Notes: generated by a model not told the origin, from the letters alone. A stretch of DNA of 64,000 nt from the human T2T-CHM13v2.0 reference genome, Homo sapiens (GCF_009914755.1 NC_060940.1), one strand, 5' to 3'; numbered from the stretch's first letter, positions 28,981 through 47,640 are shown. Program-made: numbers and translations.

Positions 28981-31418
28981 CCATCACTGCTATTTTCAAA
29001 TGAATTCTTTTAAGTGTCTCCTTTCAATTTCTAATGCAGTAAACATCAATAGCATTAGCCCACATAAACAAAAGCTCTTTGGGAAATCTCAGTAAATTTT
29101 TAAGACCGTAGAAAGGAAGGTCATACCTTAAAATGTAGCATTGATTGAGAAAGGAAGGAGGAGAAGAAATACAGAATGATACCATCTATGTGAATTAAAA
29201 GTGCCTACATGCAAAACAGCCACAGTGCTTTGTTAGAGCATTTTTCTAAAGGCACCCAAGACAAAGAGGAACGATGCCTGCAGTGGGAGAGGGAGGCCTA
29301 GGAGTGAGAAATCTCATTCAAAGGGAATAAAACAAGAGAGGGACCTCACAGAGACCCCCTGATCGTGACCTACCATGTACTGCGGAGTGTGCTTAACTCA
29401 CCCTCTGCATCAGAGGCTTCCACCCTCCCTCCCACAGAACAACAGCCCCCTTGGTCCCCTGCCCTGCTGCAGCTGCAGTTCCCCAGGACAGAGCTGACGC
29501 CATCCAGAGACCCTCCCCTGGGCTCCCAGCATCATCTGGGAGGATTTTCTCCAGCAAACCCACACAAGGTGAGGAGCAGGGGTGAGTCTGTCACCAAAGG
29601 AGCAGCATTGCAGGATAGGGAAGGCCAGTGGCGAGGCGAGCACACTGATCAGAGGCCACTGACATTGACTAAAGGACTGGGTCAGTTGCAGGCACAGAGC
29701 GGGAGCGCTGGCCAAATGGGAAGCACGACAAGCAATGCAGACACAGGCAGAAGGAGACAGAAGTGGATGGCAGGACTCACAACACCCTCTTCCTGGTAAG
29801 GGCACATGTTCAAGGTGCATGCATTAGACAGCCCTGTACCCAGGGTGATGGGGAGGGAGGAACAATGAACCCAGCAGCGACACACGAAGAAGCCAGCATG
29901 AGGGGCCAGGAGCCCAGAGAAGAAGGTTCTCCAAAGGCACAGAGCAGTCACAGGGTCCAATCCCACCGACACTGACCGAAGGGCACATGCTCCTTCACTT
30001 TAAGCCAGCAATGGAGATAAACACTCGTCATCAACACCAAACGACTTCCCTGGTTTCTGTGTAACCAGCACTCCTGTCCGGAAACTTGCTGCTTGTCAAA
30101 GAAACACACCTTACTGTCATATGGTGCAGCTGTGACATTGCTCAGATGACATTTTTTTGTCACGAGCTGTCATATGACAACTTTTTTTTTTTGAGCGTTA
30201 GTACAGGCTGTGCATTGTGCTGTACTCACACCCAGGGGTAAGGTGAGGAACAAAGGCAGCCCAACCCCTGCCCGCACACATGAGCCCCGTCTGGCGAGAT
30301 GGCAAAAAATCACAGCAATGCTCCTGCCCTCTGGAATCCCACCCAAAACGCCGGCCTCTCATCCTATCCATCCCCTTTGGTAAGCAAGCCCCTCTGTCTC
30401 CACTTTGTCATCTTCCCTCTATCCCCCTCTGCTCTCTCCTCAAGCCCAGCCTCTGTCTCAGCCAAGCTGGTCCCCGTGGCCTTCATGGCCCCCAGCAATT
30501 GGCCCAGGACAGGCTTCTGCCTTGGGACTGTCCTCTTTGGGACCAGGGAAATGATTTGCAAGTCCCAGTGCTGAGAGAAGATGTGGGGCCTTCTTCTTCA
30601 AAAGTCATTAGACATTAAATGATTAATAATCATTTAATTAATAATTAAGGCAGCAGCAGAGCATTAAACCAAGCTCAGGGCCTGAAGCCAGCCCTGCCCC
30701 ATCTTGAATGTGGAGACAAGAGTTTATCTCCAACCTGGGACCCATTAACATGTCCTGTTGTGAGCAGGGGACGTCGTCAGCCTCATCACTAACTGCTCTG
30801 AAAGCAACCTAGAATCTCATCAGCTTCCCCGAAGAGCTTGCTGAAATTCATCAGAACAGAAATTGCAAACTGAAATGCAAGGTGAAGGAAAAGCAAGGGT
30901 TTTAGATATGAGTTTTAAAAATTAAAGTTTTAAAGAGTCCTGCCTGACCACAGAGCTATACCCTAAATCCCAAGAGCCCTTGGCCCTGCTGCAGTTGTCC
31001 TTGGTCACTCAAGGCAGGGACGGTGGGATAGGATGGAGGGTCAGCCAGGGCTTGCTGTGGGCACCCAGAGGGCAGAGGCCTAAGGGCTGTGAGCTGTGCC
31101 CAGAGACACCACCTTGGGGAGAGACGCCTCACTCACCAGGCGGCCCTGGGAGTCCTGGAGGAGGAGGCCGCAATGGACTCCCTTTCCACTGTGACTTTCC
31201 TTAACCTCTGGTTTTATGAAAATCACGGAAGTCAGGATATTTGCTCAGAAAACAGGATATTTAATCAAGAACCAAGTAGTTCAAAGCATGGCCACAGTCA
31301 TTGTTAAGAAGCTGCAGAGACACAGGCAAAAGTATGGCAGGGGAAAGAGATGGCCCAAGAGGGCAGGGAGGCCACACATCCTGGAGAGGAGGCCCCCTCA
31401 CCCAGAGCATGTCTCAAC

Positions 31419-31938
31419 TGTAAGATACAATAAATCTTTCTGAGTTTCTCTTCAAAAGGTTTAGCCTGTTAACTTCCTTATCCTTTGTTCTCAAACTCAA
31501 CTTTGTTTTTCCTTGGCCCTAGTTACCGTAAACAGCCTAATCCTTCCCATCAGCTCTAATCAATAACTCACATCTGTTCCCTTGGTTACCTGTACCAGTT
31601 GTTCCCCAGAAACTGCACGTCTCACAAGCTCCACCTCTGTACCTCATGTCCCCCTCCTCTGCTATATTTAGGAAAATATGTACAAGTAGCCAGTCGGGTC
31701 AGCTCAGATTGTGTGGTCCAACCCCAGCTCCTGGGGGAGTGACACAGAGATAGGGACTGTGTTAAAGATAAAAACCCCCTGGTCTCCTTTGTTCTGTGTG
31801 CACTTGGGATCTTGATTGACACAAGTGACACCCTTCTGCAGAAGTAAATTGCCTTGCTGAGAGGATTAAACTTTTGCCTGCGTGTGGTTTTACTTCCCGG
31901 CACTGAGCATTTATTCCTGGAGTATTTTATATCCAACA
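31419..31938 (+). mobile_element. ERV1 solo LTR (LTR10-like)
   Basis: TG...CA termini, 520 bp, 4-bp TSD CAAC (31415-31418 and 31939-31942); family assignment from recall. Confidence 0.8.
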
Positions 31939-45146: not shown

Positions 45147-45529
45147 GTAGTAGGGTGCTGCAGGGACCACAGCCTTTGCCACTTCCCTCTGGAGGCTGCA
45201 GCTCACCCGGAAAAAGGCTAGGGACACAGGAGACCCCCACTTCAGACTCCTCTCCTGCAGCTGCTGCCCCTCAGGCCAAGGAACAGCCCTCTCTGTTGGA
45301 AGGGAGCCCCCAGAACAGAGGCCATCCAAACCTGAGGCAGAGGGGGACCATATCCTCCTCACCAATCTAAGAGGCTTCCCCAAAGACCTCACCCCCAGCT
45401 TTTGCAGACCCAGCCTAGTGCCTGGGCTTCAGCTGAGAGGCTGGGGGGATGTTTTCCTTCCTGCCCCAGAGACTGTCAACTGAATCCTCAAAATGTATCT
45501 GAAGGAATGGGAGACATTCTAAATATACT

Positions 45530-47640
45530 GTTTGACTCTGAACAAAAAGATCAAAAGTTCAGGGACATTCTTTGAGGCCATCAGAGTACAAAACAGAAAT
45601 CAGTCAAAGGAAGAGTCTGGGCTTCAACATATCAAATTAAATTCTAGTGAGGAAACTGCTTGTTAATTTGGAGCCAGTTAACAAGAGAAAACAGAGACAA
45701 TGTGAAATATAACAAAACCATATGTGAGATTTAATAACACTTTCTAAGGTAAGAAGAGCTTTAAAGAATTTAAATGCAAAGGAGACACGTGGATCTAACT
45801 TCTGTCTGGCTCGGGAAGAACATATGAGGCTTCAGAATTCCTACAGGAAAAAGAGAAACAGAGAAACCAACATGCTGCCTTTAATGACTTCATCAAATGC
45901 CATGAGCAATCTCAGAGAGTCCTCCATGTCCTTTTTTGCAAGACACAAGAAAACGCCCATCTAAAAGATCACATTACACCATGAGAAGCGCCGGCAGGCC
46001 AGTAGAGCGATGAGACACAGTTTCGGACAAGTCAGACGGCAGATGACTTCGACAGAGTCTTCGTTAACCATGATGGGGAAAAGCACAGACTACTTCCAGG
46101 CAACACAGAGGGAGGTTGTATCAGACAAGCAACATCTGGAAGAACAGTAAATCCGCTGAAAGAAGGTGACTATCCACTGCATAAGGCCAACACTCTCCTG
46201 AAAAGATCAACGTGCATCTGCACAGCCCACTCATGCAGAGCATTAGCAGAAAATCACAGCCCTTAAGCAAGGTGACTCTGGAAGAGAAAGAAATGGAAGC
46301 GAGACGCAGCCTTCCAAATGCACTTCGGAAGAGCATCCGCAAGACAGGGGCTGGGAGAGCAACTGCCATAGTGAAAAGTAACATTGACTTACTTCATGGG
46401 ACCAAGCCTCTTCTGGAACATCAATCTAAAAACCACAGAGCCTGAATGAAAGCTGTTAGCAAACGGAATCTCAAAAACCAGTTTGCTTAGCAAGGAAAAG
46501 AACAGGAAGGGAAGTGGCAAAATCTTTCCCCCAGAAGAAAATAACCAAAACTCCAAGACCTGGATTAAAAATGAGAAAAACAAGAAAGGCCTTATACGAT
46601 CCAGAGTTGCATTCTGAACAAGAACACCCATGAACTCTCCTTCATGGCATAGTATGTTAAAAGAGCTCTTGCCAGCCCGGTGCGGTGGCTCACGCCTGTA
46701 ATCCCAGCACTTTGGGAGGCCAAGGCAGGCAGATCACCTGAGGTCGGGAGTTCAAGACCAGCCTGACCAATATGGAGAAACCCTGTCTCTACTAAAAACA
46801 TAAAATTAGCCAGGTGTGGTGGCACATGCCTATAATCCCAGCTACTTGGGAGGCTGAGGCAGGAGAATCGCTTGAACTCAGGAGGCGGAGGTTGCAGTGA
46901 GCCGAGATCACGCCATTGCACTCCAGCCTGGGGCATAAGAGCAAAACTCCATATCAAAAAAAAAAAAAAAAAAAAGGAGCTCTTGCCACAGAGAAAGTAG
47001 GTGCTACCAACTTGAGACACATTTCAGGGTAAACATACAGAGGAAGGGAGAGTCTTCAATCAACTGTGTTCCTCAAAACAGCCCTGAGAAGCAACAGTCA
47101 TCAGAGACTTCCTGCAAGATACCCTCAACCACTGGAGTTTTGGCCCCACCCCCATTCCCACACCAGGTGAGGTCTTCTTCCCACCACCAACAACCAGTCA
47201 ACCCATGGGGGTCTTTCTTGCTGGAGGAGCCCAGTGTACATTAGAGGCCTCAAGAATAGTTCCTAGGGCCATCTGAGGCCTCCAGTGCAGTACGTACCTC
47301 CTATTAGATAGAGCTGAGGCCCCATCAATACATGCAAGAAATCCTTCCCCTTTGAAAAGTTGGTGTCACAGGCCGCCTGTCATTTCCATGAGTTCAATGA
47401 TCACACCAAGACAAGGGTGTCCACCCCACCAGGGAGACCACTGCCCTAACCAGAAAGACTTCCCATGTCTCCTCTTCCTCCCCTCTGTGGTTCCCTTTAG
47501 ACCCCCTCAAGATAATACAATCTATGTTTTCTCCAAGTAAGAACTACCTTTTGCCCAAGAGGGTATATGTAGACAACAATCTAAGGTTTGGAGTTTTAAA
47601 AAACTCTTGACCGCTATGTAGACTACTCCCCAAACTATTT
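45530..47640 (+). pseudogene. Decayed intronless MIA3/TANGO1-derived retrocopy, copy B (interrupted by an AluSp)
   Basis: Colinear peptides: HAAFNDFIKCHEQSQRVLHV..N..L...IT (45871-45978), [38 protein letters not shown]; many stops and frameshifts. Confidence 0.8.
46675..46972 (+). mobile_element. AluSp
   Basis: Sp diagnostics GGTCGGGAG, CCTGACCAA..TGGAGAAA, GCCATTG, AAGAGCAAAACT; TSD at 46659-46674 and 46973-46988 (1 mismatch). Confidence 0.88.

What the first reader, a model, noticed from the sequence alone, without database searches (positions are those of the whole stretch)
31200..47640. Fossil pair of TANGO1 (MIA3)-derived retrogenes retaining only the cytoplasmic coiled-coil and proline-rich region
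Seen: two paralogous intronless segments (~31200-33660 and ~45530-47640). Their translations give ordered matches to recalled human TANGO1: EQK-IKSS...R.QN vs YEQKIKESKK...RKQN; HAAFNDFIKCHEQSQRVLHV vs [27 protein letters not shown] vs [23 protein letters not shown] vs ERAIAEEKREAANLRH; SFGPTP..GE vs SFGPSPVSGGE; PPIRY; FLPSVVPFRP vs FLPGHAPFRP. I found no luminal SH3 or transmembrane part. Known: this region binds cTAGE5 and Sec23/Sec16 at ER exit sites, and the sister gene MIA2/cTAGE5 spawned the CTAGE retrogene family. Inference: the strong protein divergence plus duplication suggests a once-functional, fast-evolving TANGO1 retrogene family that died in the human lineage and may be intact in other mammals.
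Basis: partly seen in the sequence, partly recalled or inferred. Interest (0 to 1): 0.8.

Follow-up and report, generated by a model that had tools for sequence, protein, structure and literature searches.

The report
Decayed TANGO1 (MIA3) retrocopy pair
Between CALB2 and TLE7 lies a badly eroded, intron-free copy of the cytoplasmic half of the ER-export gene TANGO1/MIA3, plus a partial second copy; both are dead in humans, so this is a genomic fossil rather than a working gene.

Summary
The core observation holds. Window 45449-47504 (+) is an intronless, collinear, heavily decayed copy of TANGO1/MIA3 residues about 1208-1844: the two coiled coils and the proline-rich region, with no transmembrane or luminal part. 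A frameshift-aware alignment scores 135, against 61.6 +/- 9.4 for locally shuffled protein; 0 of 200 shuffles reach it. It has 34% amino-acid identity, 13 frameshifts and 11 stops. CTAGE (MIA2-family) proteins give no signal.

A 123-aa protein from an unnamed non-human source (P0124) bridges the two. It is 55-60% identical to the human copies and matches TANGO1 1550-1626 at 40% without gaps, E 4e-8.

The "pair" is only partly real. Copy 1 is clearly paralogous only at 32579-33667, with a TANGO1 or P0124 signal from about 32350/32517. Its claimed 5' part (31200-32350) has no protein-level TANGO1 signal.

Both human copies share a TGA stop and have drifted neutrally since duplicating.

A past coding phase is suggested by an indel-free block that is already about 46% diverged. 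My simulations show the human data alone cannot exclude a copy that was dead on arrival. No long intact relative was found in the protein libraries.

This is a new member of a known kind and of modest interest.

The parts
45449..47504 (+). Copy 2: an intronless, decayed copy of TANGO1/MIA3 residues about 1208-1844 (CC1 with the TEER region, CC2, proline-rich domain). The best-supported core is about 45844-47040. Paralogy with copy 1 runs on to 47648.
   Evidence: Frameshift-aware alignment: 170 of 504 codons identical, 13 frameshifts, 11 stops. 0 of 200 shuffles reach its score. MIA3 exon map.
46675..46988 (+). Alu insertion inside copy 2, counted with its second target-site duplication. The 15-bp duplication is AAAGAGCTCTTGCCA, with 1 mismatch between the two copies. 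The Alu has 8 CpG in 281 bp.
   Evidence: Sequence read; CpG count and target-site duplications.
32347..33667 (+). Copy 1: a partial paralogue covering TANGO1 residues about 1485/1548 to about 1845. There is clear DNA paralogy with copy 2 at 32579-33667 (83-84% identity outside the Alu), P0124 homology at 32517-33185, and 'PPIRY' at about 33326-33340.
   Evidence: TANGO1 score 77, reached by 2 of 200 shuffles. P0124 matches it in the genome search at E 7e-9.
32715..33041 (+). Alu at the same site in copy 1, with the same 15-bp target-site duplication (a perfect match), but young-looking: 21 CpG in 281 bp.
31800..32346 (+). Possible, very diverged 5' extension of copy 1 (about 50-55% identity to copy 2 along the main diagonal). 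It has no protein-level TANGO1 signal.
   Evidence: in 3 of 4 tiles the best of 29 offsets is the main diagonal; z is 1.4-4.2; z 0.7 against TANGO1.
44508..45145 (+). Left member of a 640-bp direct repeat that brackets copy 2. It is part Alu and part unique sequence.
   Evidence: 90% identity over 646 bp; non-Alu part 93.7% identical, K2P 0.066.
47901..48544 (+). Right member of the same 640-bp direct repeat. It starts in mid-Alu, about 250 bp after the end of copy 2.

Best explanation
An mRNA of MIA3 (TANGO1) was reverse-transcribed and inserted between CALB2 and TLE7. The copy was 5'-truncated just after the transmembrane segment, so it encoded only the cytoplasmic CC1-CC2-proline-rich part.

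This happened before the split between the human lineage and the lineage that yielded P0124. Most of its amino-acid divergence from TANGO1 accumulated while the reading frame was still kept. That points to a transmembrane-less, fast-evolving coding gene. By inference only, this would have been a soluble ER-exit-site factor able to contact cTAGE5/TANGO1 through CC2 and Sec23/Sec16 through the proline-rich region.

The gene then died. A TGA stop is shared by both human copies. Its 3' half is present twice, 14 kb apart, through local duplication or gene conversion at K2P about 0.19. Both copies have drifted neutrally since and each took up an Alu. Today they have no coding function and lie upstream of, or in an intron antisense to, LINC02136.

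Shown: the TANGO1 origin, the lack of introns, the truncation, the disablements and the neutral drift since duplication. I put the TANGO1-retrocopy identity at about 0.9.

Inferred: the former coding phase and what the protein did. The confidence given here is for the whole story, including that coding phase.
For: Identity:
- Frameshift-aware score 135, with 0 of 200 shuffles reaching it; the reverse strands are at noise.
- All 120 stored TANGO1-family proteins were scored; the 40 highest score 124-147 against copy 2, and none stands out as closer.
- CTAGE ORFs give z 2.1, -0.9, 0.2 and -1.3.
- P0124 against TANGO1: 40% over 77 ungapped residues, E 4e-8. P0124 against CTAGE9: 25%, E 0.67.

Intronless: aa 1200-1907 lie in 24 exon blocks over chr1 221879414-221899357, but are contiguous in about 2 kb here.

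Truncation: no signal for aa 1100-1260 upstream of copy 2 (z 1.1).

Death before duplication: the same TGA sits at the same codon in both copies. Differences between the copies are spread evenly over codon positions (29/22/38, p 0.11; 41/31/40, p 0.44).

Coding phase:
- In the 77-codon block, 35 of 76 sites are shared-derived between the human copies and P0124, against 2 P0124-only and 8 human-only. So about 46% of residues had already changed before the split.
- P0124 nevertheless aligns to TANGO1 with no indel and no stop.
- At the local indel-to-substitution ratio (19 indel events per 124 differences), I calculate that neutral divergence of that size predicts roughly 4-8 indels in 231 nt.
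Against: - Neutral-only simulations of the MIA3 coding sequence at 0.45-0.55 substitutions per site, with indels at 0.13 per substitution, give median scores of 92-236 and best ungapped segments with medians of 52-60 (maxima 78-89). The real values are 135 and 74. The human data alone therefore do not reject a copy that was dead on arrival.
- The indel-free argument rests on one block. It was found because it is an ORF, and it comes from a source I cannot name.
- The motif conserved between TANGO1 and the CTAGE proteins (HEKKAHENWL..AR.AER) is lost in the chr16 type. This fits relaxed constraint.
- P0124 is only 123 aa long, so its locus is probably broken too.
- No poly(A) tail or target-site duplication of the retrocopy itself was recognised. 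There is only a short A-run, 11 A in copy 1 and 7 in copy 2, about 45 bp before the end of the paralogy.
- The CC1 and proline-rich parts are not significant on their own.
Confidence: 0.5

Rival explanations
1. Dead on arrival. The same TANGO1 processed copy was never a gene. It has simply decayed neutrally for a very long time (about 0.5 substitutions per site), and the 3' half was later duplicated.
For: Neutral-only simulations at d of about 0.45-0.55 reproduce the score, identity (34-36%), detected frameshifts (9-20) and stops (11-19) of the real alignment. The family motif conserved between TANGO1 and the CTAGE proteins is lost. No intact long relative is present in the protein libraries.
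Against: By my general knowledge, not tested here, about 0.5 neutral substitutions per site on the human lineage implies an age well beyond that of the old mammalian repeats. Neutral DNA that old is rarely recognisable. P0124 aligns to TANGO1 over 77 codons at 40% identity with no indel, although most of that divergence predates the split. From the indel ratio I calculate roughly 4-8 expected indels.
Confidence: 0.35
2. The copies derive from MIA2/cTAGE5, like the CTAGE retrogene family, and not from MIA3.
For: The genome holds many cTAGE5 retrocopies: 13 at 89-95% and 4 at 71-78% DNA identity to one MIA2 exon. cTAGE5 has the same CC1-CC2-proline-rich layout (PMC5851698, passages read).
Against: None of the 17 hits outside the MIA2 locus itself is on chr16. 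The CTAGE1-like and CTAGE9-like ORFs give z 2.1, -0.9, 0.2 and -1.3 against the two copies, and tblastn gives equal noise on both strands. P0124 is 40% identical to TANGO1 but 25% to CTAGE9.
Confidence: 0.02
3. This is a remnant of an ancient TANGO1-like paralogue, or a retrocopy of a diverged paralogue that has since been lost, rather than a copy of MIA3 itself.
For: Its divergence from TANGO1 (34-41% identity) is about as large as that between MIA3 and MIA2 in their conserved exons (36-68%). The 40 best-scoring stored TANGO1-family proteins are about equally distant from copy 2 (scores 124-147).
Against: There is no room for introns in copy 2. No such paralogue turned up in the 1.84-billion-representative library or elsewhere in this genome.
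Confidence: 0.08
4. The resemblance is chance similarity between coiled-coil-like and proline-rich translations.
For: Single high-scoring segments are weak (best E 0.31). A proline-rich stretch at 52917-53625 scores 119 purely from composition; 29 of 60 shuffles reach that score.
Against: 0 of 200 composition-preserving local shuffles reach the score of copy 2. The independent bridge through P0124 gives E 4e-8. The matches are collinear with TANGO1 over 600 residues.
Confidence: 0.02

Closest known systems
MIA3 / TANGO1 (chr1), especially the cytoplasmic part shared with TANGO1-short
   Same: The order of CC1 (including the TEER region, aa 1255-1295), CC2 and the proline-rich domain is the same. 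Collinear similarity covers aa about 1208-1844. The best-conserved block is aa 1550-1626 in CC2. The domain layout is taken from passages read in PMC5851698.
   Different: There is no luminal SH3-like domain and no transmembrane helix. There are no introns. Identity is 34%, with 13 frameshifts and 11 stops. It lies on chr16.
CTAGE retrogene family (retrocopies of MIA2/cTAGE5; for example the intact 777-833-codon open frames at the chr6, chr7 and chr18 loci fetched here)
   Same: These are also intronless retrocopies of a TANGO1-family mRNA that encode a coiled-coil plus proline-rich protein, and they were amplified by later duplication.
   Different: The parent gene differs (MIA2, not MIA3). 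The CTAGE copies are young (89-95% DNA identity to the parent exon), keep the transmembrane segment and have long open frames. The chr16 copies are far older, lack the transmembrane segment and are dead.
Ordinary processed pseudogenes
   Same: It sits off the parent chromosome, lacks introns, is 5'-truncated, carries stops and frameshifts, and has later Alu insertions.
   Different: The divergence is unusually extreme: standard DNA and tblastn searches miss it. There is a hint of a former coding phase. No recognisable poly(A) tail or target-site duplication remains.

Membership tests
Processed (retro)copy of MIA3 | Significant similarity to the parent protein | tested here: met
   Copy 2 scores 135 and 0 of 200 shuffles reach it; copy 1 scores 77 and 2 of 200 reach it. 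P0124 bridges to TANGO1 at E 4e-8.
Processed (retro)copy of MIA3 | Collinear with the spliced mRNA across exon junctions, with no introns | tested here: met
   aa 1200-1907 form 24 exon blocks over 20 kb in MIA3. Here they are contiguous over 45449-47504, interrupted only by a 314-bp Alu.
Processed (retro)copy of MIA3 | Closer to MIA3 than to its paralogue MIA2/cTAGE5 | tested here: met
   CTAGE ORFs give z of at most 2.1. P0124 is 40% identical to TANGO1 and 25% to CTAGE9. The MIA2 protein proper was not assembled; CTAGE1-like and CTAGE9-like ORFs stood in for it.
Processed (retro)copy of MIA3 | Poly(A) tail and flanking target-site duplications | tested here: inconclusive
   There is only a short A-run (33610-33620 and 47596-47603), about 45 bp before the end of the paralogy. 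No target-site duplication of the retrocopy was looked for beyond reading the ends; at this divergence none is expected to survive.
Processed (retro)copy of MIA3 | Disabling mutations (status as a pseudogene) | tested here: met
   Copy 2 has 13 frameshifts and 11 stops. There are 6 stops in the 163-codon read-through. A TGA is shared by both copies.
Functional TANGO1-family protein | Luminal SH3-like domain and transmembrane anchor | tested here: not met
   No signal for aa 1100-1260 upstream of copy 2 (z 1.1). Full-length TANGO1 tblastn over the whole window gives nothing under E 0.4.
Functional TANGO1-family protein | Open reading frame | tested here: not met
   The longest open frames in the copies are 61-87 aa in copy 2.
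Once-functional retrogene | Evidence of selection on the coding frame (dN/dS below 1, or a deficit of indels) on some branch | tested here: inconclusive
   For: an indel-free 77-codon block in which 35 of 76 sites are shared-derived. Against: neutral simulations fit the human data. No DNA from other species was available, so dN/dS could not be computed.

The most novel reading that the evidence does not exclude
Early mammals carried a transmembrane-less TANGO1-derived retrogene, possibly as a tandem pair, between CALB2 and TLE7. It encoded a soluble CC1-CC2-proline-rich protein and evolved fast as a real gene, for example as a soluble modulator or competitor of TANGO1/cTAGE5 rings at ER exit sites. 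It was lost on the primate stem and may still be open, at least in part, in the lineage that yielded P0124.
Probability: 0.3. Interest if true: 0.55.

Novelty: new member of a known kind. Interest (0 to 1): 0.35.

Why it matters
MIA2/cTAGE5 is known to have produced a retrogene family. An equivalent product of its sister gene MIA3 has no row in the RefSeq gene table supplied for this window, and my text searches found no mention of one (0 papers for six phrasings; nothing specific).

The case shows that a very old retrocopy, missed by standard DNA and tblastn searches, can still be recovered. What recovered it here was frameshift-aware alignment plus a bridging sequence from another species.

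If the coding phase is real, it points to a lost soluble TANGO1 fragment in mammalian ancestors. That would interest people working on ER-exit-site evolution.

For human biology today it is an inert fossil. Copy 2 lies in a LINC02136 intron on the opposite strand, and copy 1 lies upstream of that gene's span.

Tried and rejected
- Whole-genome DNA search with copy 2's 5' 1.1 kb: it found only itself and copy 1.
- Whole-genome protein search with the 61-aa ORF: it found only itself.
- Pfam scan of 10 ORFs from the copies: nothing over cut-off.
- Searching the genome with single MIA3 exon translations to reach MIA2 or CTAGE: they found only themselves. I therefore located MIA3 and MIA2 through neighbouring genes (AIDA and PNN Pfam families). 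I found the CTAGE copies with a MIA2 exon as DNA query.
- Raw tblastx was swamped by Alu. After masking it gave only sub-threshold hits.
- Third 'TANGO1-like' tile at 52917-53625: rejected as compositional, since 29 of 60 shuffles reach its score.
- Codon-position identity to MIA3 (0.50/0.58/0.37). I first read this as a sign of selection, then dropped it. The alignment is optimised on protein, and synonymous change in the parent explains the asymmetry.
- A 'too few frameshifts' argument from the human alignment. I dropped it after simulation showed that the aligner reports only 9-20 of the roughly 120 simulated indels I calculate from the settings at d 0.5.
- Looking for a closer relative among the 120 stored TANGO1-family proteins, including the squirrel, horse and camel TANGO1-like entries: none is closer.
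Full report
**What is there**

The window is human chr16 (T2T) between CALB2 and TLE7.
- Searches show the ORF listings.
- One search shows 'PPIR*' in copy 2, and one search shows 'PPIRY' in copy 1.
- '[16 protein letters not shown]' is read across an Alu insertion site by using the first target-site duplication.

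I fetched the MIA3 locus of the same genome after finding it through its neighbour AIDA.

**Is it more than chance?**

Standard searches fail:
- Genome-wide DNA and protein searches with pieces of copy 2 find only the chr16 copies.
- Pfam finds nothing.
- tblastx and tblastn against MIA3/TANGO1 give only sub-threshold hits (best E 0.31; nothing under E 0.4 in the whole window).

The weak hits on the + strand of copy 2 are, however, collinear with TANGO1. I therefore wrote a frameshift-aware Smith-Waterman aligner (BLOSUM62, gap 11/1, frameshift 12). I ran it on the two copies with the Alu cut out, against TANGO1 aa 1200-1907. The TANGO1 sequence was P0005, a 1907-aa protein returned.

| Target | Score | Local shuffles (20-residue windows) | Shuffles reaching it | Other controls |
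|---|---|---|---|---|
| Copy 2 | 135 | 61.6 +/- 9.4, max 104 | 0 of 200 | reversed protein 54; reverse strand z -0.6 |
| Copy 1 | 77 | 54.8 +/- 7.5 | 2 of 200 | reverse strand z 0.9 |

By region:
- CC2 (aa 1481-1640) is significant in both copies (z 7.2 and 5.4).
- CC1 in copy 2 is marginal (z 2.6).
- The proline-rich part is not significant alone (z 0.6 and -0.6).
- Copy 1 upstream (30300-32400) gives nothing (z 0.7).

**The alignment**

Copy 2 aligns from 45449 to 47504 with TANGO1 aa 1208-1797. The last motif, FLPSVVPFRP, corresponds to aa 1835-1844. In total 170 of 504 codons are identical (34%), with 13 frameshifts and 11 stops.

In MIA3 the same residues lie in 24 exon blocks spread over chr1 221879414-221899357. 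The chr16 copy is therefore intronless.

Nothing resembling the transmembrane or luminal part lies upstream (z 1.1). The domain layout comes from passages of PMC5851698:
- 709 residues face the cytoplasm.
- The minimal TEER region, aa 1255-1295, lies within CC1.
- CC2 binds cTAGE5.
- The proline-rich domain binds Sec23 and Sec16.

**Which parent?**

I fetched the MIA2 region and the CTAGE retrogenes. One MIA2 exon has 17 retro-derived matches in the genome besides the MIA2 locus itself, and none of them is on chr16.

Two intact CTAGE open frames give no significant score against either copy (z 2.1, -0.9, 0.2, -1.3). tblastn with them gives equal noise on both strands. All 120 stored TANGO1-family proteins were scored; the 40 best score 124-147 against copy 2, and none stands out.

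**An independent bridge**

I read 46185-46673 through its six stops as X (P0121) and searched 1.84 billion representative proteins with HMMER. Three proteins scored E up to 0.001. One, P0123, is an internally repetitive 436-aa protein. One, P0122, is 2330 aa long with eight matched stretches; I did not inspect it. The third is P0124.

P0124 is 123 aa long and comes from an unnamed source. Its properties:
- It is 55% identical to copy 2 and 60% to copy 1, and it runs across the Alu site without an Alu.
- By BLASTP it matches TANGO1 aa 1550-1626 at 40% identity over 77 residues without a gap, E 4e-8. Against CTAGE9 it gives 25%, E 0.67.
- In the human genome it matches only the two chr16 copies, at E 7e-9 and 1.5e-7.
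- Searching the 5.8-billion library with P0124 found no longer protein. It found only one other short one, P0125, 68 aa.

**The 'pair'**

DNA paralogy is clear only for 32579-33667 versus 46538-47648. K2P is 0.18-0.20 outside the Alu, with 19 indel events per 124 differences.

Upstream of that point identity drops sharply. There is a 62% local match at a shifted offset. There is also a faint main-diagonal signal back to about 31800: in 3 of 4 tiles the best of 29 offsets is the diagonal.

Both copies carry TGA at the same codon, where P0124 has leucine. Their mutual differences are spread evenly over codon positions. They were dead when they last shared sequence and have drifted neutrally since.

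**Was it ever a gene?**

For:
- In the 77-codon block, 22 of 76 sites are unchanged.
- 35 sites are shared-derived between P0124 and at least one human copy. Two are P0124-only, 8 are human-only and 9 differ in all.
- So about 46% of residues had changed before the two lineages split, yet P0124 still aligns to TANGO1 with no indel and no stop.
- By my calculation, with indel-to-substitution ratios between about 0.06 and the local 0.13, neutral change of that size predicts about 4-8 indels in 231 nt.

Against:
- Neutral-only simulations starting from the MIA3 coding sequence at 0.45-0.55 substitutions per site reproduce the human score, identity, reported frameshifts and stops.
- The argument rests on one block from one unnamed source.
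- The motif conserved between TANGO1 and the CTAGE proteins is lost in the chr16 type.
- P0124 is short, so that locus is probably broken too.

I put a past coding phase at about even odds, and survival as an intact gene in some mammal at about one in ten.

**Literature**

Three text searches found nothing on an MIA3/TANGO1 retrocopy or on LINC02136:
- Searches returned listings with nothing specific.
- One search returned 0 papers for six phrasings.

Of the papers listed, I read only passages of PMC5851698. I opened no supplements.

**Verdict**

This is a real, very old, 5'-truncated processed copy of MIA3 with a partial duplicate. It has no row in the RefSeq gene table supplied with the finding, and it is inert in humans. 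It is a new member of a known kind.

Noticed in passing
window 32715-33041 and 46675-46988: Both copies carry an Alu at exactly the same site with the same 15-bp target-site duplication (AAAGAGCTCTTGCCA). The copy-1 Alu keeps 21 CpG in 281 bp and has a perfect duplication. The copy-2 Alu keeps 8 CpG and has 1 mismatch. This means either two independent insertions at the same paralogous site, or replacement of an old Alu by gene conversion from a young one.
   Followed up: partly
window 44508-45145 and 47901-48544: A 640-bp direct repeat brackets copy 2. It is 90% identical overall and 93.7% identical in its 495-bp non-Alu part (K2P 0.066). The right member starts in mid-Alu. It is much younger than the split between copy 1 and copy 2, so it is a later local duplication and not part of the retrocopy.
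   Followed up: partly
window 32579 / 46538 (boundary): Identity between the two copies falls abruptly from about 83% to about 55-62% 5' of this point. This suggests an older duplication whose 3' 1.1 kb was later homogenised by gene conversion, or a partial re-duplication.
   Followed up: partly
window 52917-53625: A Pro/Ser-rich, GC-rich stretch beside the LINC02136 first exon and the tRNA-Met gene scores 119 against the TANGO1 proline-rich domain. This is purely compositional, since 29 of 60 shuffles reach that score.
   Followed up: yes
G000 chr6:29.10 Mb, chr12:125.91 Mb, chr7:134.04 Mb, chr21:30.42 Mb (L034-L037): Four older cTAGE5-exon-like copies sit at 71-78% DNA identity, alongside the 13 young CTAGE copies at 89-95%. 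This points to at least two waves of MIA2 retrocopying. I fetched them but did not analyse them.
   Followed up: no
protein library hits P0076, P0081, P0092, P0102-P0108, P0120: The grey squirrel (Sciurus carolinensis) has many separate TANGO1-like predicted proteins, about 83% identical to the human exon. This suggests a recent lineage-specific MIA3 expansion there. They are no closer to the chr16 copies than TANGO1 itself.
   Followed up: partly
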